Shown: positions 28 to 37,066 of the stretch, in pieces
How the letters are laid out: each line of letters starts with the position of its first letter
How positions within the stretch are numbered: position 1 is the first letter of the stretch
Assembly: GCA_964605345.1 (NCBI GenBank)
Contig: CAZSCD010000102.1
Coordinates: forward strand, 1-37,066
Length of the DNA stretch: 37,066 bases
Source of the DNA: an uncultured Dehalococcoidia bacterium
GTDB lineage: Bacteria > Chloroflexota > Dehalococcoidia > Lucifugimonadales > CAZSCD01
Direction: 5' to 3'
Program-made: the position numbers and the translations under genes
The notes under the pieces: model-generated
The model's database searches: none
What the model saw: only the letters and a program-made list of their open reading frames with translations
What the model was told of the DNA's origin: nothing

Positions 28-585
28 TTACTCGACGGTTATCGCTCCTAACATGCCATTACCTTCATGATAAATACATATGATAGGATACACGCCTGGT
101 TTATCAAATGTAATGGTGACGGATTCTTCTTGGCCTGGATCTATATCTAAATCAACTCCCAAATCATCAATCGTAAAAGAATGCAATTCAGTTTCTGCGA
201 TGTTAACGAAGGTCACGGTGTCTCCTACCTTGAAGGAGAACTTGCTTGGTTCATAAGCATAGGCACCACTACCGGCTGGGTCAGTATTTAATACACTAAC
301 CACTGTCGCATCACTGTCAGTTGGTTCGCTTGTACTTGTTGAGGATTGGCCACTCGATTCTGTAGACATCTCCGATTGGTTTGTAGAAGGAGCCTTTGGT
401 ACTGCTGGAGGAGATATTCTATCTATAGAAGTTTCTTCATTAGGTTCTACAGCGCCGTGTTCTGCCTTTCCTACATCACAGGCGACCAATAGAAGTAAAG
501 TTACACTAGCCATTATATATAAGTTGATAAATTGTTTCAGCATACATCTCCTTACTGTAACCCGCACTGGATCTTTAAAGGGCAT
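28..585 (-). CDS. Cupredoxin (type-1 blue copper) lipoprotein, plastocyanin/amicyanin-like
   Basis: 185-aa ORF. N-terminal hydrophobic signal ends in the lipobox-like LLLVAC. A Ser/Thr/Glu-rich linker follows. The C-terminal domain has a T1 copper ligand pattern: His in ELHSF, then C-x2-H-x4-M in PIICIYHEGNGM. Confidence 0.75.
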   Translation of the reverse strand: MPFKDPVRVTVRRCMLKQFINLYIMASVTLLLLVACDVGKAEHGAVEPNEETSIDRISPPAVPKAPSTNQSEMSTESSGQSSTSTSEPTDSDATVVSVLNTDPAGSGAYAYEPSKFSFKVGDTVTFVNIAETELHSFTIDDLGVDLDIDPGQEESVTITFDKPGVYPIICIYHEGNGMLGAITVE

Positions 586-670
586 GGTGTGGATTACAGA
601 CCTAATCTACATCTATGCTAACATCGACTCTTAAATGTGGTCAATCGTGAAATTCAAATCCACCAGAAGG

Positions 671-699
671 TTGACACTGAACAAGTGTTCTGTTAGGCT
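671..699 (+). promoter_or_regulatory. Putative lexA promoter (-35 TTGACA 671-676, 17-nt spacer, weak -10 TAGGCT 694-699)
   Basis: Perfect -35 hexamer with 17-nt spacing to a weak -10. The LexA box lies inside the spacer. The GAGGA ribosome-binding site and ATG at 760 follow downstream. Confidence 0.4.
679..690. promoter_or_regulatory. LexA operator (Cheo-type SOS box GAAC-N4-GTTC)
   Basis: Perfect palindrome GAACAAGTGTTC about 70 nt upstream of the lexA start, within the promoter spacer. It matches the Gram-positive-type consensus CGAAC-N4-GTTCG core, consistent with autoregulation. Confidence 0.7.
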
Positions 700-704
700 A
701 CTTC

Positions 705-716
705 AGAACATTAGTG
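705..716. promoter_or_regulatory. Possible second, degenerate LexA half-conserved site (GAACATTAGTGC)
   Basis: The GAAC-N4-GTGC sequence has one mismatch in the right arm. It lies 14 nt downstream of the first box and abuts a TATAAA hexamer. Confidence 0.3.
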
Positions 717-759
717 CTTATAAAGTCTCCTTTATGTAGTGTTCAAGTGAGGATATTTA

Positions 760-1404
760 ATGAAAAAAACTCTTTCTCCACGCCAACAATCGATGTTGAA
801 TTTTATTTGGGATTTCATGGATGATCACCAATTTCCTCCAACAATACGCGATATTCAGGCGGGTTGTGAAATCAGTTCCACATCGGTGGTAGATTACAAT
901 TTGCAAATTCTGCAACGCGAAGGACATCTACGTCGTTCTCCAGAAGTTTCCAGAGGGATAGAACTTATAGACAGGAAACCTTCAGGAGTGCAATACGATA
1001 CTATTCGAGTCCCCATTCTTGGCAACATTGCAGCAGGAGAACCTTTACCTATTCCATCATCAGATTCCTGGCACACAGAAGAAATGGATAGCATGGATTT
1101 ACCGCCTTTTCTGACTAAAGGAAAAGAGGATGTGTATGCAGTTCGTGTTAAAGGCGAATCTATGATAGATGCATGTGTAGTGGATGGAGATTTAGTATTA
1201 TTAGAACCCATAACTAGCCCAGAAAATGGTGACATGGTGGCGGCGTGGCTAACCGACAGAGATGAAGTAACACTTAAACGATTCTATCTAGAAGGCGATA
1301 TGGTAAGATTGCAACCTGCCAATGCCACTATGAGTCCTATCACTGTTCTTGCAGACAATGTAGCTGTTCGTGGGAAAGTTGTAGGTATGATTAGAACGCT
1401 TTAA
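760..1404 (+). CDS. lexA: LexA repressor (S24 peptidase, SOS regulator)
   Basis: 214 aa. Winged-helix N-domain (PPTIRDIQAGCEISSTSVVDYNLQILQREGHLRR). Ala-Gly cleavage site in NIAAGEP. Ser nucleophile in VKGESM and Lys in TLKRF. Confidence 0.92.
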   Translation: MKKTLSPRQQSMLNFIWDFMDDHQFPPTIRDIQAGCEISSTSVVDYNLQILQREGHLRRSPEVSRGIELIDRKPSGVQYDTIRVPILGNIAAGEPLPIPSSDSWHTEEMDSMDLPPFLTKGKEDVYAVRVKGESMIDACVVDGDLVLLEPITSPENGDMVAAWLTDRDEVTLKRFYLEGDMVRLQPANATMSPITVLADNVAVRGKVVGMIRTL

Positions 1405-1447
1405 ATTTCTTGGTTACAGATAAAATCCCCCCAACTGGTTGGCAATA

Positions 1448-1490
1448 GCCGTTACTTATTACCTAGAATTAATAGATAATAAGTAACGGC
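1448..1490. repeat. Perfect 13-bp inverted repeat GCCGTTACTTATT-N17-AATAAGTAACGGC between lexA and copA
   Basis: Arms at 1448-1460 and 1478-1490 are exact reverse complements. No U-tract follows. A GATAAT hexamer (1475-1480) overlaps the right arm. Function is open: lexA transcript hairpin or copA operator. Confidence 0.5.
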
Positions 1491-1512
1491 ATAAACGCAA
1501 ATTAGGGATTCT

Positions 1513-4023
1513 TTGTTGGGTAGTGTGGGATTCGTAATGATATCTTCCAAGATTATAAACTCCACGACTGTAACATTTCCTATTAACGGTATGACTTGTG
1601 CTGCCTGCGTTTATCATCTGACGCATGCTTTAGAAGGTTTATCTGGTGTAGAAAATGCTGGGGTTAGTCTTGTTACCGAGAAGGCATCTGTTAAATTAAA
1701 CACGCAGGGTGTTACGTTAAACGCTTTGATTAAAGTAGTTAAAGATGCCGGATATGATGTAAGTACTAGAAAAATCTCACTGGCAATTTCTGGCATAAAT
1801 GACAATTTGTCTGCGAACCAAATTCAACGTGCTTTGAATGATGTAGGCATCGTTATTTCTTCTGATATAAATTTAGGTGCCGAACAAGTATCTATAGAAT
1901 ATCTGCAAGGAGCGTCGAGTCTTTCTGAAATAAAGCATTCTTTGGAAAATATTGGGTTATCTGTAGTGTCTATTGTGTCTGACGAAGATGACGGTCAAAT
2001 ATCCGTGAAGGACACTTTTGTATTAAAAGCAAAATTGCTATCGAGTTTGGTCATGGCAGCAATCATTATGTTGGCTATGCCTTTTTCAGATAAGATTGAG
2101 TGGATACCGTTCCGATTGGATTATTTACTGTTCATATTAGCAAGTCCAATTCAGTTTTGGGCAGGAAGTCAATTTTACGTTAGTGCTTGGAAGGCTTTCA
2201 AACGACGAACTTCAAATATGAATACGTTAATAGTCTTGGGGATTTCAGTAGCATATTTCTACAGTGTTATTGTTACTTTTTTCCCAAGGTCTTTCTTGTC
2301 TGAAGGAATTTCAACGGAAACATATTTCGATACGTCCACAGCGATTATTGGACTAGTATTACTAGGAAAATATATTGAAACTCGAGTTAACACTAGAGCT
2401 TCAAATGCCATAAATGCATTGATGGAGTTACAGCCCAATTCGGCACGAATTCTACGCGACGGTAAAGAGTTCGATGTTGCCATAGAAGACGTGAAAGTTA
2501 ATGACATAGTTGTAATACGCCCTGGTGAGCGAATCCCAGCTGATGGAGAGTTGCTAGAAGGATTCTCATCGCTTGATGAATCAATGTTAACTGGTGAAAG
2601 CACGCTGATTGACAAGTCTCCTGGTAGCCCAATCTTTTGTGCTTCTATGAACACAACGGGCAGTTTTACATTCAAGGTTACGAAATTAGGCAGCGAAACC
2701 ATTTTTTCTAATATAGTGAGCTTGGTAGAAGAAACACAATTTTCAAAGGCTCCAATCCAACGACTTGTTGACATAATCTCGAGCTATTTTGTTCCAACAG
2801 TCATAACTATATCTTTAGGAGTACTCGTGTTATGGTCTATCTTGGGCCCCAATTCTGATTACATGATTGCCATTATGGCTGCAGTAGCGGTGTTAATTAT
2901 TGCCTGTCCATGTGCCATGGGACTTGCTACCCCTACTGCTATAATGATTGGAACAGGTAAAGCTGCTGAACATGGTATTCTCATCAGAAATGCCGAAGCA
3001 TTTGAACTAGCACATAAAGCTGAAATCGTCGTGTTCGATAAGACAGGGACTCTCACTTTTGGGAAACCATCTGTAACAGATGTGGTAGCTGTCGGGATTA
3101 GTGAAAGTGAATTACTCACTGTAGTTGCATCTGCAGAACAGGGATCAGAACATCCTCTTTCAACAGCCTTGATTAACTACGCAGAAGAAAAGGCACTGAA
3201 TTTATCTCAACCCAAGGGATTTAAAGCATTTCCCGGTTTAGGCGTAGAGGCTAAAGTAGATGGATCAACAGTGACAATAGGAAACCGAGAGTTCATGAAT
3301 AGAAAAGGATTATCGGTAGAATTACTAAATGCGAGAGCGACAGACTTTTCTAAACAAGGCAAAACCACTCTTTTTGTAGTTGTCGATGAAGATGTGAAGG
3401 GAGTCATAGCAGTAGCGGACATTGTCAGGCCAGAATCTGCATTGATTGTTAACACACTTCGTGCTCACGGATTGGAAGTCGTAATGTTGACAGGTGACAA
3501 CAAGGATACTGCCGAAGCTGTTGCAAATCATATTGGCATAAGTTTGGTGTCCGCTGAGATACTACCCGCAGACAAATCCGATTATATAAAAACCGTCCAG
3601 AAAAATGGCAAAATGGTGATAATGATAGGCGATGGAATCAATGATGCACCTGCCTTGGTACAAGCTGACGTAGGTATTGCAATCGGCACAGGAACAGATA
3701 TTGCGATAGAATCGGCAGACATAACGCTTGTTGGAAGTCATCTCAAAGGAATTACAACCACCATTGAATTGAGCAAAGCGACTATGAAGACCATAAAACA
3801 GAATCTTTTCTGGGCCTTTGCTTATAATGTAGCGTTAATACCAATAGCAGCTGGTGTGCTGTATCCAGTATTTATGAATGAAGGAGTTCCAGATATATTA
3901 AGGCCGGTACTAGGTGATTTTGGGTTTTTAAATCCCGTTCTTGCTGCGAGTGCTATGGCCTTAAGTTCAGTGACAGTAGTAGCTAATTCACTTCGGCTCA
4001 AAGGATTTAGTGTAAAAATCTGA
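1513..4023 (+). CDS. copA: Copper-translocating P1B-type ATPase
   Basis: N-terminal HMA domain with GMTCAACVYH. A second HMA-like repeat lacks the CxxC. CPC transmembrane motif (ACPCAMGLATP), DKTGTLT phosphorylation site, GDGINDAP hinge. The ORF opens at TTG 1513; ATG 1537 (MISSKII) is an equally plausible start. Confidence 0.92.
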   Translation: MLGSVGFVMISSKIINSTTVTFPINGMTCAACVYHLTHALEGLSGVENAGVSLVTEKASVKLNTQGVTLNALIKVVKDAGYDVSTRKISLAISGINDNLSANQIQRALNDVGIVISSDINLGAEQVSIEYLQGASSLSEIKHSLENIGLSVVSIVSDEDDGQISVKDTFVLKAKLLSSLVMAAIIMLAMPFSDKIEWIPFRLDYLLFILASPIQFWAGSQFYVSAWKAFKRRTSNMNTLIVLGISVAYFYSVIVTFFPRSFLSEGISTETYFDTSTAIIGLVLLGKYIETRVNTRASNAINALMELQPNSARILRDGKEFDVAIEDVKVNDIVVIRPGERIPADGELLEGFSSLDESMLTGESTLIDKSPGSPIFCASMNTTGSFTFKVTKLGSETIFSNIVSLVEETQFSKAPIQRLVDIISSYFVPTVITISLGVLVLWSILGPNSDYMIAIMAAVAVLIIACPCAMGLATPTAIMIGTGKAAEHGILIRNAEAFELAHKAEIVVFDKTGTLTFGKPSVTDVVAVGISESELLTVVASAEQGSEHPLSTALINYAEEKALNLSQPKGFKAFPGLGVEAKVDGSTVTIGNREFMNRKGLSVELLNARATDFSKQGKTTLFVVVDEDVKGVIAVADIVRPESALIVNTLRAHGLEVVMLTGDNKDTAEAVANHIGISLVSAEILPADKSDYIKTVQKNGKMVIMIGDGINDAPALVQADVGIAIGTGTDIAIESADITLVGSHLKGITTTIELSKATMKTIKQNLFWAFAYNVALIPIAAGVLYPVFMNEGVPDILRPVLGDFGFLNPVLAASAMALSSVTVVANSLRLKGFSVKI

Positions 4024-4049
4024 TAATCATGTCTATGTAGGAGAAATCT

Positions 4050-4250
4050 ATGAGGATACCTTTTTTCAAACGTAATGTAGGCCTGTCAAAAGATCCGGTT
4101 TGTGACATGGATGTGGTTACTAATAAAACACCTGGTGGAACGTGGAAATACAAAAACACCTCGTATTATTTCTGTGGCCCAGGTTGTAATCGAGCATTTC
4201 AGAAAGATCCTCTTGCATATTTATCTGGGAATAAAAAATTACGTATGTGA
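4050..4250 (+). CDS. YHS/TRASH-domain small metal-binding protein
   Basis: 66 aa with DPVCDMDV...YYFCGPGCNRAFQKDPLAY, the YHS-domain cysteine pattern. It lies immediately downstream of copA. Confidence 0.8.
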   Translation: MRIPFFKRNVGLSKDPVCDMDVVTNKTPGGTWKYKNTSYYFCGPGCNRAFQKDPLAYLSGNKKLRM

Positions 4251-6940: not shown

Positions 6941-7432
6941 ATGATGTTTTTGATTAATAATTACTCTTACTTAATTCTTGGATCAGTATTGATGTTAAGT
7001 ACGACAATACTGACCTGGCGCCTCTTCAGTCCAGGATGGGCCATAGCCATTTCATCGACAATGATGGTGTTTTTAGTGATTGTTCAGTCAATTGCAAGCA
7101 TCGACCGTAATTCCATTGATACCCTGGAAGGATTCGACAATATCCTTGCGTCTGGGGATCCTGTGCTCCTCGAACTCTACTCAAATTTTTGAGTGGCATG
7201 CCTCAAGGCTAAATCTGACGTAGACAGATTAGAATCTAATTTAAAAAACTTTAGAGTCATTAGGGTTAATGTTAGTTCATCTTTGGGCAAATACATCCGG
7301 CAAAAATATCACGCATCTATGGTTCCTACATTTATCGTTTTCGATAAAAACGGACATGAGACCTGGAGAGATAGTGGGGGAGCCCCAAAAATTGAAACTA
7401 TATTGTCCTTGGATTTGCAAAAACTGAAATGA
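6941..7432 (+). CDS. Membrane-anchored thioredoxin-fold protein with in-frame UGA (predicted selenocysteine, U-V-A-C redox motif)
   Basis: ORFs 6941-7192 and 7193-7432 are contiguous in one frame, separated only by TGA 7190-7192. The joined product reads ...DPVLLELYSNF-U-VAC-LKAK...ASMVPTFIVFDKNGHE. That is a beta1 strand, a CxxC-position motif and the cis-Pro loop of a thioredoxin fold. The N-terminus has two TM helices. Confidence 0.75.
7212..7230 (+). promoter_or_regulatory. Candidate bacterial SECIS-like hairpin downstream of UGA 7190
   Basis: AAUCUG (7212-7217) pairs perfectly with CAGAUU (7225-7230), enclosing the 7-nt loop ACGUAGA, which contains G. The stem begins 19 nt after the UGA. 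It is short and AU-rich, so this is only a candidate. Confidence 0.35.
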
Positions 7433-7591: not shown

Positions 7592-8179
7592 ATGAAACTG
7601 ACTATAGATAAAGCAATTCGTGAAGGGGTTATTGAAGATCTGCCTTATGCAGATAATATTAAAGATGCTGAATTGAGGGAACGTGTATACGATGCCTGGG
7701 CAATGGCTTTGTCTTCTAGTGGGTTTAGACGAATTAACGATATGAAATGTGATCCAACCCCTGGATATGCGGAGTTAAAAAATAGAGGCCAGGCAGCACA
7801 TCTGAATGGAGTTGCTCGCATAGGAGTAGCTATGGCTAATGGACTCAAAGACGAAGTGCCTCAATTTGATGTCGATATGGATGAAATTATTGCTGGAGGC
7901 CTCTGTCATGATTTGGGAAAGCCCTGGGAATATGATCCCAATAACATAGAAAGATGGAAAGATCACAGGATAACTGGCAGGCCGTCTTTACGCCATACTC
8001 TCTTTGGTGTTCATATTGCCTTATCAGCTGGTTTGCCTGAGCAAATTGCTCATATAGCTGGGACACACGCTACTGAAGGAGATATCATAGTAAGAAGTTT
8101 GGCAGGTGAGATCATTGCAATGGCGGACGAAGCCTTCTGGCGTGTTTTAGAAAGTGCGTGCCTTTTGGAAGCTCCTTAA
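7592..8179 (+). CDS. HD-domain metal-dependent phosphohydrolase family protein
   Basis: 195 aa with the H...HD signature (GGLCHDLGKPWEY) and downstream His residues (AGTHATEGD). Confidence 0.75.
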   Translation: MKLTIDKAIREGVIEDLPYADNIKDAELRERVYDAWAMALSSSGFRRINDMKCDPTPGYAELKNRGQAAHLNGVARIGVAMANGLKDEVPQFDVDMDEIIAGGLCHDLGKPWEYDPNNIERWKDHRITGRPSLRHTLFGVHIALSAGLPEQIAHIAGTHATEGDIIVRSLAGEIIAMADEAFWRVLESACLLEAP

Positions 8180-11699: not shown

Positions 11700-13313
11700 A
11701 TGTCAAAGAAATCATTTAACCCAATCAATATTGGTGTAGATAAACAACTATTCATAGATGATCAAATTATTGAATCTATGAGTTTGGGTGTCCATAAGAT
11801 TTCAAACCAACCAGTTAAACATCCAGATAACCCTGTGATTCGTCTTGGCAGCGAATGGGAACAAAAAGGCGTACTATCACACGGCGGAGATGCTGGGTCA
11901 ATTTTCTTTGATGATGAAAGAGGAATTTTTAGGTTTTATGGCTGGATGGCTAATTGGGATGCTACGGACAGATTCCTGTTCTATGCAGAATCGAAAGATG
12001 GAATAAGGTGGAATAAACCACGTCTAGGACAAGTAGATTATCTTGGATACGACACAAATTTTATTAAAATACCTACTCACAAAAACGACAAAGGGGAATT
12101 GGAAGGTGGCAACAGTAGTGTTTTTAAAGATCCTGTTTCAAATCAACAGGAAAGATATAAAATGATCTTTATGGATAAACGCGGTGGAGGCATTGATTGG
12201 CACCTACCAAATAGGCACTTACATCCAGAAAATAAAGAAAATTGGGATGGGCAAAGGCAAGGCAGGGCGATATATCCAGCTTTTTCGAGTGATGGTATTA
12301 ATTTCACTCGCTACGAAGTAGAAAAACCCAGTGTTCCATTTGATAGTGATACTAATAACAATGTAATTTGGGATGCCAAACGACAGCGATATCTTTTGTA
12401 CCATAGAGTCTGGCCTAATTTAGATAAGCGAACAAACCAATCATCTACCCAGCCTTCAGGGCATCACATAAGGACGGCAGCATGGGCATCGAGCAAGGAT
12501 TTTATTCACTGGGATGGTCCCCAAAATAAATTCTATCCAGAGGATCAATATATATGTTTTTTACCAGATGAATTTGACCGATTAGGCAGTCGTGATTTCT
12601 ATACTTTTGAAGTTCTTCCATATGAAGACGGGTTCGTAGGTTTTACATCTGTTTTTCATACATACTTCAACGAAATTCCTGCAGGAATGGATAGTGGTAA
12701 CGCACAATCTCCTTGGCTGGACAAGGTGGATGTTCAGTTACTTTGGAGTCGGGACGGTGAAAAGTTCGATAGAATAGGAGAAAGAAGAGTTTTCATTCCC
12801 AACGGAACTGAAGGGAGTTGGGACGAAGATCTGATTTATACTGTACAGGCACCAATAGTAAGGAAGGACTTAGGGGAAATTTGGATATATTATGAAGGTG
12901 TATCGGGACACCACTACTTTGGACATCGAGGAGAACATCAAAGAGGCCAAGTTGGATTAGCTATCTTAAGGCTGGATGGATTCATAAGTATTACTGGAAG
13001 TGGCACATTAATTACCAAGCCACTGATTTTCCAAGGCAACCAATTATCAATTAATGCTACGGGTGTTGATAAATACGCTGGTGAATTTTATGGTTCGGTT
13101 GAGGTAGAAATAATAGATGCCCAAACACAGCACCCAATACCTGGATTCACCAGAGATAATTGCGATATTTTTGGCGGAGATGAAATTTCACATACTGTAA
13201 GCTGGAACGGAAGTGCGAATGTAGGTAACCTTCAAGGGACTTCGGTAATGCTTCGGTTTTACCTCAAACGAGCAAAGCTATTCTCATTTCAGTTTACCGA
13301 TGTGAATAGCTAG
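11700..13313 (+). CDS. Uncharacterised protein, probably a beta-propeller glycoside-hydrolase-like fold
   Basis: 537-aa ORF. The N-terminal pattern DKQLFIDDQIIES...NQPVKHPDNPVI and W/D-rich repeats resemble GH32/43-clan-like hypothetical proteins. There is no catalytic motif I can name, so the product call is weak. Coding status is strong. Confidence 0.45.
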   Translation: MSKKSFNPINIGVDKQLFIDDQIIESMSLGVHKISNQPVKHPDNPVIRLGSEWEQKGVLSHGGDAGSIFFDDERGIFRFYGWMANWDATDRFLFYAESKDGIRWNKPRLGQVDYLGYDTNFIKIPTHKNDKGELEGGNSSVFKDPVSNQQERYKMIFMDKRGGGIDWHLPNRHLHPENKENWDGQRQGRAIYPAFSSDGINFTRYEVEKPSVPFDSDTNNNVIWDAKRQRYLLYHRVWPNLDKRTNQSSTQPSGHHIRTAAWASSKDFIHWDGPQNKFYPEDQYICFLPDEFDRLGSRDFYTFEVLPYEDGFVGFTSVFHTYFNEIPAGMDSGNAQSPWLDKVDVQLLWSRDGEKFDRIGERRVFIPNGTEGSWDEDLIYTVQAPIVRKDLGEIWIYYEGVSGHHYFGHRGEHQRGQVGLAILRLDGFISITGSGTLITKPLIFQGNQLSINATGVDKYAGEFYGSVEVEIIDAQTQHPIPGFTRDNCDIFGGDEISHTVSWNGSANVGNLQGTSVMLRFYLKRAKLFSFQFTDVNS

Positions 13314-29677: not shown

Positions 29678-30799
29678 ATGAACATATATCAAGAATTAGG
29701 AGTGAGCCCAGTTCTGAATGCGGCTGGAACTCTTACGATGCTTGGAGGGAATACACCGTCTGACAATGTACGTAGCCTGATGGACGAATCTGAGGAATAT
29801 TATGTGTATATAGGTGATTTAATAACTAGTGTAGGTAATAAAATTGCCAGTATGTTAGATGTGGAGGCTGCAACCGTAACTTCGGGTTGTGCGTCGGCCC
29901 TAACATTAGCTGCGGCTGCTTGTATGACTGGCAACGACCCTGTCAAAATCGAAAAGATACCAGATGTGACGGGAATGCGTCACGAGTTTATTATTCAGAG
30001 ACAACTCAGAGTAAAATATGACAGATGCCTGACCTTGACAGGTGGTAAGTTGGTAGAAGTAGGTGATACTCAACAAACAAAGCCAGAACATATAGAAGCT
30101 GCGATAGGAATTAATACTGCTGCGATTCATTATTTGGCTGTACCACAACCTGAGCAATTACCGGGAGCTTTACCACTAGAAGAAGTAATTGAAATAGGTC
30201 ATTCTCATGGCATTCCAATCATAGTGGATGCGGCATCTAGAGTGTATCCGATCCATGAACTCAGTCAGTACGTGAAAATGGGTGCTGATTTGGTGGCGTA
30301 TGGAGCCAAATATTTTGGATCTGTCAGTTCTAGTGGGATATTGACTGGAAGAAAAGATTTGGTAGACTCCGCAGCGAGTCAAGGTTTTGCTAATTTTGAA
30401 ACATCTACATTAAGAACATTTGGTAGACCAATGAAATTAGATAGGCAAGAGATAATTGCGGTATATGCAGCCCTCAAGGAGTGGTTGAGTATGAATCATG
30501 AAGATCGATTTGCTCTATACGAATCCCGTATTTCAAATCTCAAATCTGATTTGAGAGATATATCTTGTATTGAAATGTCTGATTATCCTGATGTAGGTCC
30601 AAAAGATGGATTGAAGATCACAATTGACCCATCAAAAACAAAAAAGACAAATTTCGAAGTGATAGAAGAGTTACGCTCTGGTAATCCCAGTATATGGGTT
30701 AGAGAATGGGACCAAATTGATGCTTTTGTAATAACAATGCCTCAATTAAAAGAAGGAGGAGAAAAGGTCATTGCTCGAAGACTCAAAGAAATTCTTTAA
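29678..30799 (+). CDS. SelA-family (L-seryl-tRNA(Sec) selenium transferase-related / DgaE-like) PLP-dependent enzyme, lacking the SelA N-terminal tRNA-binding domain
   Basis: 373 aa. The N-terminus PVLNAAGTLTMLGG and the PLP-Lys region GADLVAYGAKYFGSVSSSGILTGRKDLV parallel SelA [23 protein letters not shown]. The length and the TMLGG motif (rather than HTNLGR) fit the SelA-like/DgaE subgroup, not bona fide SelA. Confidence 0.7.
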   Translation: MNIYQELGVSPVLNAAGTLTMLGGNTPSDNVRSLMDESEEYYVYIGDLITSVGNKIASMLDVEAATVTSGCASALTLAAAACMTGNDPVKIEKIPDVTGMRHEFIIQRQLRVKYDRCLTLTGGKLVEVGDTQQTKPEHIEAAIGINTAAIHYLAVPQPEQLPGALPLEEVIEIGHSHGIPIIVDAASRVYPIHELSQYVKMGADLVAYGAKYFGSVSSSGILTGRKDLVDSAASQGFANFETSTLRTFGRPMKLDRQEIIAVYAALKEWLSMNHEDRFALYESRISNLKSDLRDISCIEMSDYPDVGPKDGLKITIDPSKTKKTNFEVIEELRSGNPSIWVREWDQIDAFVITMPQLKEGGEKVIARRLKEIL

Positions 30800-30912: not shown

Positions 30913-32175
30913 ATGGTGATTAACATAGAACTTATTCGCAGAGACCCCAGTCTTACAAAGAAACTCTTACAACAAAGAGGCGAAGAGATACCAGTCCAAG
31001 AGATAATTGACATGGATAATCGTCGTAGGGCACTCGTGTCCAAAACGGATGACTTACGAGCACGACGTAATAGCGCTAGCAAAGACATAAGTCAAAAAGT
31101 GAATATGTCAACAGAACTCATTGAAGAAATGAGAAGTGTTGGAAGTGAAATCAAGGCTCTTGACGCGGAAACAAGGATATTGCAAAAAGAGATTAATGAA
31201 CTGCTTTTAACTATTCCCAACATACCTCAAAATGATGTTCCAATTGGTGAAGACGATACAAGTAACGAAATAGTGCGTACTATAGGTTCTCCTCGAGCTT
31301 TTCCCTTTAATCCATTGCCACATTGGACCATTGGAGAAAATCTTGGGATCATAGATTTGGAACGAGGGGCTAAGTTATCAGGTGCGAGGTTTTTCGTGCT
31401 AAAAGGGAAAGGAGCCAAACTTCAACGTGCCCTTATATCTTGGATGCTTGATCTCCATGTGGGTGAACATGATTACGAGGAAATATATCTACCTAATCTG
31501 GTTACTCAAAAAACAGTAACTAGTAGTGGGCATTTCCCAAAATTTGCCGACACAATGTACCATGACAATGACGATGACCTATGGATGATACCAACGGCTG
31601 AAGTTCCTATAACCAACCTTTTGAGAGACGAGATTTTACCTCCTGATGTGTTGCCAATTTACTATGCTGCACACACGCCTTGTTTTCGTAGAGAAAAAAC
31701 TGCAGCTGGTAGAGATACGAGAGGAATAAAGCGAGTACACCAATTTGAAAAAGTTGAGATGTATAAGTTTGTTGAGCCCGATGAATCTGAAACCGAATTA
31801 CAACGATTGGTATCTGATGCAGAAGAAATCTGCATTCGCCTGGGAATCACTCATAGAGTCTTACAGCTATGTACAGGTGATCTAGGATTCTCTGCGGTTA
31901 AGGGATACGATATAGAAATATGGGCTCCTGGGTCTAATGAATGGCTAGAAGTTAGTTCGTGTTCAAACTGCACGGATTTTCAGGCTAGGCGTGCTTCTAT
32001 AAGATATCGACCAAAACTAGGCGCACGTCCTAAGTTTGTTAACACTCTTAATGGGTCAGGACTTGCTTTGCCTAGGGTTATCATTGCAATTTTGGAGAAT
32101 TACCAAGAATCTGATGGATCTGTCACTATACCGGAAGTGTTGCGCCCATATACTGGTTTTGATCACATAGGGTGA
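30913..32175 (+). CDS. serS: Serine--tRNA ligase
   Basis: 420 aa. N-terminal coiled-coil arm and class II motifs (GARFFVLKG, TAEVP, FRREKTAAGRDTRGIKRVHQFEKVE, NGSGLALPR). Confidence 0.95.
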   Translation: MVINIELIRRDPSLTKKLLQQRGEEIPVQEIIDMDNRRRALVSKTDDLRARRNSASKDISQKVNMSTELIEEMRSVGSEIKALDAETRILQKEINELLLTIPNIPQNDVPIGEDDTSNEIVRTIGSPRAFPFNPLPHWTIGENLGIIDLERGAKLSGARFFVLKGKGAKLQRALISWMLDLHVGEHDYEEIYLPNLVTQKTVTSSGHFPKFADTMYHDNDDDLWMIPTAEVPITNLLRDEILPPDVLPIYYAAHTPCFRREKTAAGRDTRGIKRVHQFEKVEMYKFVEPDESETELQRLVSDAEEICIRLGITHRVLQLCTGDLGFSAVKGYDIEIWAPGSNEWLEVSSCSNCTDFQARRASIRYRPKLGARPKFVNTLNGSGLALPRVIIAILENYQESDGSVTIPEVLRPYTGFDHIG

Positions 32176-36423: not shown

Positions 36424-36499
36424 TGGTGGAGCTGACAGGGGTCGAACCTGCGACCTCCTCCGTGCAAGGGAGGCGCTCTCCCAGCTGAGCTACAGCCCC
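36424..36499 (-). tRNA. tRNA-Ala (anticodon UGC), CCA encoded
   Basis: The reverse complement is GGGGCTG-TA-GCTCAGCTGGGAGAGC-G-CCTCC-CTTGCAC-GGAGG-AGGTC-GCAGGTTCGACCCCTGT-CAGCTCC-A-CCA. The G3:U70 identity pair is present. Confidence 0.92.
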
Positions 36500-36606
36500 A
36501 CTGTGTGACTACATAAATGACTGTATTGTGTCATGAAATAGACGATTTTAGACAGATTGCAATTTCATTATTTTAATACATTGTACCCTGAATGTTCTAT
36601 AAAGCC

Positions 36607-36638
36607 AAAGGGCCGATTTTTATAAAAATCGGCCCTTT
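36607..36638. terminator. Perfect 32-nt palindrome (GC-cored hairpin flanked by A/T runs); possible bidirectional intrinsic terminator or rRNA/tRNA processing stem
   Basis: AAAGGGCCGATTTTTATAAAAATCGGCCCTTT is fully self-complementary. A T-run follows on the plus strand (TTTT), and TTTGGCTTT follows on the minus strand. It lies between the 16S 3' end and tRNA-Ala. Confidence 0.4.
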
Positions 36639-36859
36639 TAAAAGCGTTTTAACATCTGAGTAGCAGAAGGAAACAAAGACATAACATTTCGTTGTTTGTG
36701 CATTTGTGTGTAATTGAACGGTGGGAGTTTTGGGATAACCAGTACATTTACAGCGAACTCCCCCCGGCAAGCCGAGGTCATGCTCAAGCTATAAATTCAT
36801 AGTTTCCACCCACCGACCGACCTAGGAATGATTCAATTATCCGAATCAGTCCATCTCCC

Positions 36860-37066
<207 letters not shown>

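What the first reader, a model, noticed from the sequence alone, without database searches (positions are those of the whole stretch)
6941..7432. Predicted selenoprotein: UGA occupies the first Cys position of the CxxC motif in a membrane-anchored thioredoxin-fold protein
Two track ORFs (6941-7192 and 7193-7432) are in the same frame and are separated only by TGA 7190-7192. Read through, the product is ...GDPVLLELYSNF-[UGA]-VAC-LKAKSDVDRL...KYHASMVPTFIVFDKNGHETW.... That gives a thioredoxin beta1 strand, a redox motif U-V-A-C where W/F-C-x-x-C normally sits, and the conserved cis-Pro loop (VPTF) at the expected distance.

Neither half is a viable domain alone. The first half would stop one residue before the active site. 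The second would begin at a GTG with no Shine-Dalgarno sequence and would lack beta1. TGA is used as a genuine stop elsewhere in the window (copA, YHS gene, yidD), so genome-wide UGA reassignment is not the explanation.

Sec replacing the attacking Cys of thiol-disulfide oxidoreductases is a well-established pattern. This particular two-TM-anchored form would still need comparison with known selenoprotein families.
Basis: partly seen in the sequence, partly recalled or inferred. Interest (0 to 1): 0.75.

Follow-up and report, generated by a model that had tools for sequence, protein, structure and literature searches.

The report
Membrane-anchored thioredoxin-like selenoprotein gene
The two short ORFs are one gene for a membrane-anchored thioredoxin-like enzyme whose attacking cysteine is replaced by selenocysteine (encoded by UGA), a correct call on an unannotated gene but a member of a class of marine selenoproteins known since 2005-2008.

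Summary
TGA 7190-7192 joins ORFs 6941-7192 and 7193-7432 in one frame. Only the joined product passes Pfam Thioredoxin.

The selenocysteine reading is strongly supported by comparison:
- The protein belongs to a large ~160-aa family (two TM helices plus a Trx fold), mostly from Chloroflexota.
- The first position of the C-x-x-C motif is either Cys (TGY) or TGA.
- TGA holds that column in homologues down to 34% identity, and in 107 of 113 family loci from a scan that also accepted TGC and TGT.
- A hairpin 20 nt downstream of the UGA shows compensatory covariation through synonymous sites. It is the only helix RNAalifold finds, fits the published bSECIS model in most members, and is absent from all 8 Cys forms examined.
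- The window uses the standard code: 0 in-frame TGA in 9,647 other codons.

Caveats:
- The window's own hairpin is weak (-4.6 kcal/mol, loop G at position 3).
- selA/B/C/D could not be searched.
- No selenium incorporation has been shown.

Sec-containing UxxC Trx-like proteins are well catalogued in marine metagenomes, and this is probably the GOS 'Trx-like 3' type. It is a new member of a known kind with no curated model. Function is inferred: an outward-facing thiol-disulfide oxidoreductase.

The parts
6941..7432 (+). Complete selenoprotein CDS: 163 codons including Sec84, plus stop TGA 7430-7432
   Evidence: Full-length homologues of 157-173 aa align end to end.
6965..7024 (+). Transmembrane helix 1 (residues 9-28), preceded by the conserved N-terminal N-x-Y-S motif (N6, S9 nearly invariant)
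   Evidence: AlphaFold helix 9-28. N6/S9 conservation.
7037..7099 (+). Transmembrane helix 2 (residues 33-53). The short TM1-TM2 loop is K/R-rich across the family, so it is predicted to be cytoplasmic.
   Evidence: AlphaFold helix 33-53. Loop K/R 94 vs D/E 16; post-TM2 segment K/R 55 vs D/E 95 in 34 sequences.
7124..7429 (+). Thioredoxin-fold domain (residues 62-163)
   Evidence: Pfam PF00085 31.8 bits. PDB profile hits to thioredoxins at E 1e-15. AF2 plus Foldseek target-normalised TM 0.77-0.81 to classical thioredoxins.
7190..7192 (+). In-frame UGA = predicted selenocysteine codon (residue 84), first position of the U-V-A-C redox motif
   Evidence: The column holds only TGY or TGA across the family. 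It aligns with Cys32 of WCGPC and lies at the N-cap of helix 85-100.
7199..7201 (+). TGC, resolving Cys87 of the U-x-x-C motif (family-invariant)
   Evidence: Invariant column C87 in alignments A2 and A5.
7212..7230 (+). Predicted bSECIS hairpin: 5' arm 7212-7217 (AAUCUG), loop 7218-7224 (ACGUAGA, with the family-invariant G-U at 7220-7221), 3' arm 7225-7230 (CAGAUU). An alternative 8-bp form with a bulged A spans 7209-7232.
   Evidence: Relative to the family consensus this copy carries a compensated double change (C25U with G39A).
7325..7327 (+). CCT, cis-Pro129 of the thioredoxin fold (V-P-T-F), family-invariant
   Evidence: Invariant P129. Aligns to the I-P-T cis-Pro loop of thioredoxin.

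Best explanation
Window 6941-7432 is a single gene for a 163-residue selenoprotein. It has two N-terminal transmembrane helices that form a hairpin anchor, followed by a thioredoxin-fold domain. The redox motif is U84-V-A-C87, with selenocysteine (UGA 7190-7192) in place of the nucleophilic first cysteine.

Decoding (inferred mechanism): a short hairpin inside the coding sequence begins 20 nt after the UGA (7212-7230) and presents a conserved G-U in its apical loop. It acts as a bacterial SECIS that recruits SelB-GTP-Sec-tRNA(Sec), so the ribosome inserts Sec instead of terminating.

Protein function (inferred): by the positive-inside rule the TM1-TM2 loop is cytoplasmic and the Trx domain faces outward. 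The product is most likely a membrane-tethered extracytoplasmic thiol-disulfide oxidoreductase, in which the selenolate attacks substrate disulfides (or sulfenates/persulfides) and Cys87 resolves the selenenyl-sulfide.

The host is a marine, 40% G+C bacterium, most likely Chloroflexota, a phylum in which Sec decoding is documented.

Shown: the one-frame architecture, the fold, the Sec/Cys alternation, the covarying hairpin specific to TGA forms, and use of the standard code.
Inferred: SelB dependence, selenium incorporation, topology, substrate, and the direction of electron flow.
For: Architecture and fold:
- One frame; only the joined product is a Trx domain.
- AF2 pLDDT 84.3 with TM helices at 9-28 and 33-53, a Trx fold, and residue 84 at the N-cap of the active-site helix.
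- Foldseek and PDB profile hits to thioredoxins, with the Sec column on the first Cys of WCGPC.

Sec/Cys alternation:
- Exhaustive phmmer found 257 cluster representatives. Of the best 150, 61 are full-length CxxC forms, 14 are 'WxxC' forms, 14 are fragments ending exactly before the column, and 6 are fragments starting right after it.
- DNA shows the 'W' is TGA while true Trp is TGG, in homologues of 41% and 34% identity.
- The closest Cys forms use TGC and TGT.
- A metagenome scan accepting TGA, TGC or TGT returned 113 family loci: 107 TGA, 3 TGC, 3 TGT.

SECIS:
- An unbiased mutual-information scan ranks pairs 27-37 and 28-36 first. These link the third positions of the Pro and Asp codons to their stem partners.
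- 89.9% of cells are paired vs 20-44% when the partner is slid; 94 double-sided changes vs 2-6; 0/500 shuffles reach the observed values.
- RNAalifold de novo finds only this helix.
- Synonymous-codon shuffles give 5.00+-0.08 bp vs 6.30 observed, and MFE -5.5 vs -10.0.
- Spacing is 25-26 nt; 80/105 have G in the first two loop positions; 63/73 five-nt loops fit N1-G-U-N-N2, matching the published model (PMC13188914).
- None of the 8 Cys forms forms the full stem: <=3 of the 5 core pairs in six, and 1/7 and 4/7 pairs in two.

Not an error, not a split gene:
- Identical TGA in independent assemblies.
- Both halves are under purifying selection: nonsyn/syn 6/12 upstream and 11/12 downstream vs L002, P=0.0002 and 0.005 against a rough 75% neutral nonsynonymous expectation.
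- Start codon after the TGA in only 6/105, and an SD-like motif in 0/105.
- Standard code.

Lineage:
- Named Cys forms are all Chloroflexota. SerRS is 66% identical to a Chloroflexi MAG.
- Chloroflexi have selenoproteins and tRNA-Sec (PMC1794560, PMC5389517), and Dehalococcoidia MAGs carry 46-49 selenoproteins (PMC13326102).
Against: - The window's own hairpin is at the weak end of the family: -4.6 kcal/mol for positions 19-45 (family median -9.5; model threshold -7.5). Its strict apical loop ACGUAGA has G at position 3 rather than 1-2, and it is not significant when tested alone against synonymous shuffles (145/2000 for bp, 604/2000 for MFE).
- No Rfam SECIS family matches.
- No tRNA-Sec, selA, selB or selD is in the 37-kb contig or in 47 related loci. 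The one SelA-like ORF is a DgaE-family paralogue.
- The loop nucleotides G31, U32, G34, A35 were fixed by my search pattern and also encode conserved Val-Asp, so loop conservation in the 101 pattern-selected sequences is not independent evidence. Only L003 and L004, which were found by protein search, show the same G-U without that ascertainment.
- Only 8 Cys-form controls were examined.
- Taxonomy rests on one named 66% hit and on family distribution.
- Topology and function are predictions. Gene neighbourhood is not conserved enough to name a partner.
Confidence: 0.86

Rival explanations
1. This copy is a decaying or inefficiently decoded selenoprotein gene. The family is genuinely Sec-encoding, but in this AT-rich lineage the SECIS has weakened, so translation mostly terminates at UGA 7190 and yields a truncated 83-residue membrane peptide.
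For: The window hairpin is only -4.6 kcal/mol. It has an A.A mismatch at the loop-closing position where 70% of the family have U-A. It fails the G-in-first-two-loop-positions and MFE criteria of the published model.
Against: The stem is kept by a double compensatory change (C25U/G39A) shared with L002. The downstream half is intact and under purifying selection between the window and L002 (11 nonsyn vs 12 syn, P=0.005). The sequence is identical in several samples. Weak A-U stems are expected at 40% G+C.
Confidence: 0.07
2. UGA at this site is decoded as something other than Sec (Trp, Cys or Gly), by near-cognate read-through, a suppressor tRNA, or a reassigned genetic code, as the public gene calls that print 'W' would imply.
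For: Several database entries translate the codon as W (P0001, P0002, P0004, P0005, P0008). Sec machinery was not observed directly.
Against: Those calls also read through the true stop into junk tails (KLKWFWCCFWVI), so they are code-4/25 artefacts on short contigs. The window has 0 in-frame TGA in 9,647 codons of 32 genes, and 6 genes stop at TGA. The only sense alternative seen at this column is Cys, the classic Sec/Cys pair. A TGA-specific covarying hairpin with an apical G-U is what SelB-dependent decoding requires.
Confidence: 0.04
3. The ORFs are two separate genes (an 83-aa membrane peptide and a 79-aa truncated Trx fragment started at GTG 7193), or a pseudogene created by a nonsense mutation or sequencing error.
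For: GTG follows the TGA in the window, and some gene callers emit the C-terminal piece as a gene (for example the 66-aa call in L006).
Against: Only 6/105 Sec-type relatives have a start codon at that position and 0/105 an SD-like motif. Neither half is a domain on its own. TGA is conserved at the same column in 107 loci down to 34% protein identity. Independent assemblies agree.
Confidence: 0.02

Closest known systems
Sec-containing thioredoxin / 'Trx-like' UxxC selenoproteins of marine metagenomes (Zhang, Fomenko & Gladyshev 2005, PMC1088965; Zhang & Gladyshev 2008, PMC2398784: Trx-like 1, 2, 3). The closest candidate is 'Trx-like 3' (weak cd02950/TxlA similarity, 212 Sec vs 183 Cys sequences, enriched in marine samples).
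   Same: Trx fold; Sec replaces the first Cys of CxxC (UxxC); Cys homologues exist; open-ocean origin. The near-parity or excess of Sec over Cys forms, the only-weak match to standard Trx models, and the resemblance to a membrane-anchored Trx-like family all fit the Trx-like 3 description.
   Different: Identity with Trx-like 3 could not be tested. No sequences are held in the paper or its supplements and CDD is not available here. The papers do not describe the two-TM anchor, the Chloroflexota affiliation or the SECIS of this family.
Treponema denticola-type selenoprotein thioredoxin (listed as 'Thioredoxin (Trx), PF00085, UxxC', experimentally verified, in PMC13188914 Table 1)
   Same: PF00085 domain with a UxxC motif; Sec at the attacking position.
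   Different: That protein is a soluble cytoplasmic Trx with the W-U-G-P-C type context. This one has a two-helix membrane anchor, a Y-S-[ND]-[FY]-U-x-[AG]-C motif without Pro, and a predicted outward-facing domain. The best NCBIfam thioredoxin score is 28.5 bits vs a cutoff of 96.8.
Membrane-anchored extracytoplasmic Trx-like reductases (DsbD gamma domain, TlpA/ResA/CcmG, cyanobacterial TxlA/plant HCF164)
   Same: A membrane-tethered Trx fold facing the extracytoplasmic side. DsbD-gamma is among the best sequence hits (NF001419, 27.5 bits) and structural hits (target-normalised TM 0.65-0.69).
   Different: All scores are far below the family cutoffs. The anchor is a two-TM hairpin rather than a single N-terminal TM or lipobox. 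No CcdA/DsbD or cytochrome c maturation genes are nearby. These families are Cys enzymes.
E. coli fdhF-type bacterial SECIS and the bSECISearch consensus model (summarised in PMC13188914, Fig. 2)
   Same: A stem-loop inside the coding region just after the UGA. It has a small apical loop carrying G-U (family loop C-G-U-N-G fits N1-G-[G|U]-N-N2), spacing of 25-26 nt (allowed 16-37), and a 5-7 bp stem.
   Different: No primary-sequence similarity to fdhF SECIS and no Rfam hit. The window's copy is weaker than the model's energy threshold. SelB binding is untested.

Membership tests
Bacterial selenoprotein gene (Sec-UGA + bSECIS) | In-frame UGA aligned with a conserved (catalytic) Cys in homologues, with TGA-containing homologues in other organisms | tested here: met
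   Column = C or TGA only. 107 TGA / 6 TGY among 113 family loci. TGA retained at 34-41% protein identity.
Bacterial selenoprotein gene (Sec-UGA + bSECIS) | bSECIS criterion (i): 3-9 nt apical loop on a 4-16 bp upper stem (PMC13188914 Fig. 2) | tested here: met
   Window: 7-nt loop, 6-bp stem. Family: 5- or 7-nt loops; 96/105 have >=4 contiguous bp (95 have >=5). Helix supported by covariation.
Bacterial selenoprotein gene (Sec-UGA + bSECIS) | bSECIS criterion (ii): G in one of the first two apical-loop positions, usually followed by G/U | tested here: inconclusive
   Family: met in 80/105, and G31-U32 is invariant (partly forced by the search pattern). Window: with the strict loop ACGUAGA the G-U is at positions 3-4; it is met only if the A29.A35 mismatch is treated as closing the loop.
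Bacterial selenoprotein gene (Sec-UGA + bSECIS) | bSECIS criterion (iii): 16-37 nt between the UGA and the apical loop | tested here: met
   25 nt in the window; 25-26 nt in all 105.
Bacterial selenoprotein gene (Sec-UGA + bSECIS) | bSECIS criterion (iv): MFE <= -7.5 kcal/mol | tested here: inconclusive
   Window hairpin alone -4.6. The 60 nt after the UGA give -7.5 only with an extra small hairpin. Family median -9.5; 78% are <= -7.5.
Bacterial selenoprotein gene (Sec-UGA + bSECIS) | Host genome encodes selA, selB, selC (tRNA-Sec) and selD | not testable with these tools
   None in the 37-kb contig or in 47 related loci. ORF 29678-30799 is DgaE-like, not SelA. Indirect support only: Sec trait documented in Chloroflexi/Dehalococcoidia.
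Bacterial selenoprotein gene (Sec-UGA + bSECIS) | Selenium actually incorporated at the UGA position | not testable with these tools
   Requires 75Se labelling or mass spectrometry.
Thioredoxin fold / Pfam PF00085 | Score above the Pfam gathering threshold | tested here: met
   31.8 bits vs 23.5, residues 63-149, only for the joined product.
Thioredoxin fold / Pfam PF00085 | CxxC-type motif at the N-terminus of helix alpha1, plus a cis-Pro loop and the beta-alpha-beta-alpha-beta-beta-alpha topology | tested here: met
   U84/C87 align with WCGPC and P129 with the cis-Pro. AF2 secondary structure, with target-normalised TM 0.77-0.81 to thioredoxins.
Canonical thioredoxin TrxA (NCBIfam TIGR01068) | Equivalog score above cutoff; W-C-G-P-C motif; soluble ~105 aa | tested here: not met
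   28.5 bits vs cutoff 96.8. Motif is F-U-V-A-C. Length 163 aa with two TM helices.
DsbD gamma / TlpA-ResA-CcmG type periplasmic reductases | Family model above cutoff; association with CcdA/DsbD or cytochrome c maturation genes | tested here: not met
   NF001419 27.5 bits vs 330. Thioredoxin_8 and Redoxin are below cutoffs. No such neighbours in the window or in 113 loci.
GOS 'Trx-like 3' selenoprotein subfamily (PMC2398784) | Sequence membership in that cluster (weak cd02950 match, UxxC) | not testable with these tools
   UxxC motif, marine origin and Sec:Cys ratio agree. No sequences are available in the paper or supplements, and there is no CDD search here.
Curated NCBIfam selenoprotein models (e.g. 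GOS_C NF045500, SaoT NF040730, HUIPC NF047660, TsoB NF045694) | Hit above the model cutoff | tested here: not met
   Only a 15.8-bit partial hit to TsoB (cutoff 805). No other selenoprotein model at E<=0.01.

The most novel reading that the evidence does not exclude
This may be a distinct, so far uncurated selenoprotein family that is largely specific to Chloroflexota. It would be a thioredoxin domain held on the outer face of the membrane by a two-helix hairpin, in which Sec rather than Cys is the predominant state across marine, sediment and freshwater lineages. Its in-frame SECIS would have visibly shaped the protein, imposing K-P-x-V-D-[G/R]-L on helix alpha1. If it is not the GOS 'Trx-like 3' cluster, it would be a new major family of extracytoplasmic selenoenzymes in a phylum now known to be very selenoprotein-rich. 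It could also be tied to thiol, persulfide or copper stress, given the TrxA, CsoR-like, MerR and OsmC neighbours in some lineages and the CopA, YHS and cupredoxin genes in this window.
Probability: 0.2. Interest if true: 0.55.

Novelty: new member of a known kind. Interest (0 to 1): 0.4.

Why it matters
- **Annotation.** Neither half is a called gene in the source record. Public databases hold this family as 83-aa and ~76-aa fragments, or as 'W'-containing mistranslations. Merging them restores an active-site-bearing enzyme. The Sec/Cys column and the K-P-x-V-D-[GR]-L / CCN...NGG hairpin signature give a simple rule for re-annotating hundreds of loci and for building a curated model.
- **Biology.** It adds a membrane-anchored, probably outward-facing selenoenzyme to marine Chloroflexota, a clade recently listed among the most selenoprotein-rich bacteria. 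It also offers a clean natural data set (more than 100 Sec forms with matched Cys forms) for studying how a coding-region SECIS constrains protein sequence.
- **Limits.** It does not change the understanding of Sec decoding or of thioredoxin chemistry.

Tried and rejected
- **Rfam.** Gathering and permissive searches found no SECIS family, only chance snoRNA/lncRNA hits.
- **Single-sequence folding.** Folding 7181-7270 was uninformative (z = -0.15). The structure emerged only from comparison.
- **Genome scan.** The search for related loci with family alignments A2 and A3 failed because no stretch was conserved enough. The single-protein genome-contig scan returned only an unrelated Oscillospiraceae thioredoxin (L009, 27%), so the one genome scan gave no taxonomy and no Sec machinery.
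- **SelA lead.** ORF 29678-30799, next to SerRS, passes Pfam SelA weakly but is a DgaE-family paralogue (TIGR01437 194 bits; SelA model 34.7 vs cutoff 267.9). Rejected as Sec machinery.
- **Second selenoprotein.** The YHS gene after copA belongs to a family with known Sec forms, but here it is an ordinary Cys form with a true TGA stop.
- **tRNA-Sec.** A search in the window and 47 loci found none.
- **Trx-like 3 equivalence.** The GOS supplements hold no sequences, so equivalence could not be verified.
- **Taxonomy.** The listing of cluster members gave no taxon names for the window's proteins. Taxonomy rests on one named SerRS hit and on the named Cys forms.
- **Gene neighbourhood.** There is no universally conserved partner. 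TrxA is upstream in 15 loci and a CsoR-like gene downstream in 10, out of ~113.
- **Promoter/terminator scan.** Around the gene it was at background.
Full report
**1. The observation**

Window 6941-7192 (83 codons, ATG start) and 7193-7432 (79 codons) are in the same frame and are separated only by TGA 7190-7192. Read through, the product is 163 residues and contains ...LLELYSNF-[UGA]-VAC-LKAKSDVDRLE...SMVPTFIVFDKNGHETW....

With Cys substituted for the UGA, it scores 31.8 bits on Pfam Thioredoxin (gathering cutoff 23.5) across residues 63-149, spanning the TGA. The N-terminal half alone hits nothing and the C-terminal half scores 13.5 bits.

**2. Not an error, not a different code**

- Three contigs assembled independently from other samples (L005, L006, L008) are 100% identical over the gene, TGA included.
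- Two diverged relatives (L001 at 97% and L002 at 89% protein identity) also keep the TGA.
- In 32 Pfam-supported genes of the window (9,647 codons) there is no in-frame TGA. Trp is TGG 117 times. Stops are TAA 18, TAG 8, TGA 6.
- The database proteins P0001 and P0002 print 'W' at the site. They also read through the real stop into a junk tail (KLKWFWCCFWVI), so they are code-4/25 gene-calling artefacts on short contigs.
- Between the window and L002, changed codons are 12 synonymous vs 6 nonsynonymous upstream of the TGA, and 12 vs 11 downstream. Both depart from a rough neutral expectation of about 75% nonsynonymous (P = 0.0002 and 0.005), so the part after the TGA is translated and under selection.

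**3. A family with Sec/Cys alternation**

An exhaustive phmmer search of 1.84 billion cluster representatives found 257 relatives. Among the best 150:

| Class | Count | Examples |
|---|---|---|
| Full-length ~160-aa proteins with C-x-x-C | 61 | P0003, P0006, P0007 |
| Full-length with 'W-x-x-C' | 14 | P0004, P0005, P0008 |
| Fragments ending exactly at ...YS[ND][FY], one residue before the column | 14 | typically 83 aa |
| Fragments starting right after the column | 6 | M[AVES]CL... |

DNA for two 'W' forms (41% and 34% identical to the window protein) shows TGA at the column, while every true Trp is TGG. The two closest Cys forms use TGC and TGT.

In a 35-sequence alignment the invariant residues are S81, C87 (the second Cys) and P129 (the cis-Pro). 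The column of residue 84 holds only C or TGA.

I used the one metagenome scan with a degenerate DNA pattern that accepted TGA, TGC or TGT at the key codon. Of 120 matches, 113 are family members at E < 1e-10 by HMM: 107 TGA, 3 TGC and 3 TGT. They come from marine, sediment, hypersaline and freshwater samples. This is the standard comparative signature of a genuine selenoprotein family.

**4. The SECIS**

I extracted 105 non-redundant TGA-type sequences in fixed register, with the U of UGA as position 1. A blind mutual-information scan over all position pairs in the first 70 nt ranked 27-37 and 28-36 first. They belong to a hairpin with stem 23-41 through 28-36 (often also 29-35) and a 5-7 nt loop.

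The covariation runs through synonymous sites:
- The third base of the Pro codon (position 27) pairs with the first base of the Gly/Arg codon (position 37): C-G 59, U-A 37.
- The first base of the next codon (position 28) pairs with the third base of the Asp codon (position 36): G-C 60, A-U 33.

Supporting tests:

| Test | Observed | Control |
|---|---|---|
| Cells forming a standard pair | 89.9% | 20-44% with the 3' partner slid |
| Cells changed on both sides | 94 | 2-6 (slid) |
| Shuffles reaching the observed values | 0 of 500 | n/a |
| Mean stem bp vs synonymous-codon shuffles | 6.30 | 5.00 +- 0.08 |
| Mean MFE vs synonymous-codon shuffles | -10.0 kcal/mol | -5.5 kcal/mol (0 of 200 as good) |

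RNAalifold, given no structure, predicts only this helix.

Measured against the published bSECIS consensus (PMC13188914, Fig. 2 legend):
- Spacing from the UGA to the loop is 25-26 nt in every sequence (allowed 16-37).
- 80 of 105 have G within the first two loop positions.
- 63 of 73 five-nt loops fit N1-G-U-N-N2 with N1 and N2 pairable.
- 78% fold at or below -7.5 kcal/mol.

The Cys forms are the natural negative control. Six from the same scan form at most 3 of the 5 core pairs, against 4-5 in 100 of 105 Sec forms. The two closest Cys homologues form 1/7 and 4/7 pairs. The hairpin also shapes the peptide: the codon at positions 37-39 is Gly or Arg (NGG) in 101 of 105 Sec forms but varies in Cys forms.

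**5. Caveats on the window's own copy**

In the window the hairpin is AAUCUG / ACGUAGA / CAGAUU (7212-7230). Compared with the family consensus it carries a compensated double change: C25U, which makes Ser instead of Pro, together with G39A, which makes AGA instead of AGG for Arg. L002 shares this change.

The hairpin is nevertheless weak:
- MFE is -4.6 kcal/mol.
- An A.A mismatch sits where most relatives have a closing U-A, so the G-U falls at loop positions 3-4.
- Alone, it is not distinguishable from synonymous shuffles.

The case for Sec therefore rests on the family, not on this single hairpin.

The loop bases G31, U32, G34 and A35 were fixed by my search pattern, and they also encode a conserved Val-Asp. 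Loop invariance in the pattern-selected set is therefore not independent evidence. L003 and L004 were found by protein search and do show the same G-U.

No Rfam SECIS model matches.

**6. Sec machinery and host**

- No tRNA-Sec is in the window or in 47 related loci.
- The ORF at 29678-30799 passes Pfam SelA weakly and lies next to SerRS. It is a DgaE-family SelA relative, not SelA.
- The YHS gene after copA belongs to a family with known Sec forms, but here it is a Cys form with a true TGA stop.
- The single genome-collection scan found no close species representative, so selA, selB, selC and selD could not be checked.

Indirect evidence:
- Named Cys-form family members are all Chloroflexota: Anaerolineae, Aggregatilineales, Phototrophicales.
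- The window's SerRS is 66% identical to a Chloroflexi MAG protein, the only taxon-named hit.
- The 16S gene is not followed by a 23S gene.
- Chloroflexi are documented Sec users with an unusual tRNA-Sec (PMC1794560, PMC5389517).
- Dehalococcoidia MAGs are among the most selenoprotein-rich bacteria in BSepDB (PMC13326102).
- The samples are open-ocean water columns.

**7. The protein and how it probably works**

An AlphaFold2 model built on 109 family sequences is confident (pLDDT 84.3, pTM 0.74). It shows helices at 9-28 and 33-53, then a beta-alpha-beta-alpha-beta-beta-alpha Trx fold, with residue 84 at the N-cap of helix 85-100. Foldseek's best PDB matches are classical thioredoxins (target-normalised TM 0.77-0.81), followed by DsbD-gamma.

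A family profile aligns U84 and C87 with the two Cys of WCGPC, and P129 with the cis-Pro, in solved thioredoxins.

Across 34 sequences the TM1-TM2 loop has 94 K/R vs 16 D/E, and the 15 residues after TM2 have 55 K/R vs 95 D/E. By the positive-inside rule the loop is cytoplasmic, and both termini, including the Trx domain, face outward.

The most likely function is a membrane-tethered extracytoplasmic thiol-disulfide oxidoreductase, in which the selenolate of U84 is the attacking nucleophile and C87 resolves the selenenyl-sulfide. The electron donor or acceptor and the substrates are unknown.

Gene neighbourhood is poorly conserved. There are two recurrent partners: a canonical thioredoxin immediately upstream on the same strand in 15 loci, and a CsoR/RcnR-family repressor downstream in 10. 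MerR and OsmC also recur. The window itself has a cupredoxin, copA and a YHS gene 3-7 kb upstream. These hint at thiol, persulfide or copper stress but prove nothing.

**8. Comparison with what is known, and novelty**

Sec replacing the first Cys of CxxC in Trx-fold proteins is well established. Thioredoxin (PF00085, UxxC) is an experimentally verified selenoprotein. 'Trx-like 1, 2, 3', 'thiol-disulfide isomerase-like' and similar UxxC families were catalogued from the Sargasso Sea and GOS data (PMC1088965, PMC2398784, PMC13188914).

The GOS 'Trx-like 3' subfamily is the likeliest equivalent. It has only weak similarity to cd02950/TxlA, 212 Sec vs 183 Cys sequences, and is marine-enriched. The papers hold no sequences, so I could not test this.

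No Pfam or NCBIfam model is specific for the family. The best NCBIfam hits are far below cutoff (DsbD 27.5/330, thioredoxin 28.5/96.8), and no curated selenoprotein model matches. Sources name the Cys forms only 'thioredoxin domain-containing protein' or 'thiol-disulfide isomerase/thioredoxin'. In the source record neither half is a called gene.

I therefore rate it a new member of a known kind: a correct, well-supported selenoprotein call in an unannotated gene, in a family that deserves a curated model, but not a new principle.

**9. Verdict**

Confidence that this is a genuine Sec-encoding gene is about 0.86. The main residual doubts are the unverified Sec machinery in this genome and the weakness of this copy's hairpin. 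Interest is 0.4.

Noticed in passing
window 29678-30799 (+), next to SerRS 30913-32175 (+): A 373-aa PLP enzyme that passes the Pfam SelA cutoff weakly (30.3 bits) but is a DgaE-family 'SelA-related' protein (TIGR01437 194 bits, below its 385 cutoff; SelA equivalog only 34.7 vs 267.9). Its position directly upstream of seryl-tRNA synthetase is curious, but it is not evidence of Sec machinery.
   Followed up: partly
window 36424-37066 (-): The 3' end of a 16S rRNA gene is followed by tRNA-Ala and then by protein-coding genes (a 154-aa ORF, rnpA, a PQQ-type propeller, yidC, jag) with no 23S gene. The rRNA genes appear to be unlinked, as is common in Chloroflexota among others.
   Followed up: no
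L007 (ENA ERZ767019 NODE_19309), 606-2163: An identical 195-aa HD-domain protein (window 7592-8179) occurs on a 3.1-kb contig with different upstream genes (86-aa and 191-aa ORFs) and no Trx-like gene. This is either a strain-level rearrangement or a chimeric assembly.
   Followed up: partly
window 11700-13313 (+): A 537-aa ORF with no Pfam or NCBIfam match. It is conserved at full length in several independent assemblies of this lineage.
   Followed up: no
P0001, P0002, P0004, P0005, P0008 and the 83-aa / ~76-aa fragment clusters (e.g. P0040, P0017): Public protein collections hold this family in three wrong forms: the Sec codon translated as Trp with read-through tails (code 4/25 models chosen on short contigs), N-terminal fragments ending one residue before the active site, and C-terminal fragments started at an arbitrary codon after it.
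   Followed up: yes
A4 alignment columns 46-48 (positions 37-39 after the UGA); window 7226-7228: The SECIS visibly constrains the protein. The residue encoded opposite the Pro codon is Gly or Arg (NGG) in 101 of 105 Sec forms but E/R/N/Q in Cys forms, giving a K-P-x-V-D-[GR]-L signature that by itself predicts Sec forms.
   Followed up: yes
L096, L024, L126 and other family loci; window 28-4250: In subsets of family loci the gene is flanked by a canonical thioredoxin (15 loci, immediately upstream on the same strand), a CsoR/RcnR-type repressor (10 loci), MerR and OsmC. In the window a cupredoxin, LexA, CopA and a YHS protein lie 3-7 kb upstream. A link to thiol or copper stress is possible but not established.
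   Followed up: partly
window 4050-4250 (+): The YHS-domain gene after copA belongs to a family that has known Sec-containing members (GxU). This copy is a Cys form (YYFCGPGC), and its TGA is a true stop followed by a short out-of-family tail.
   Followed up: yes
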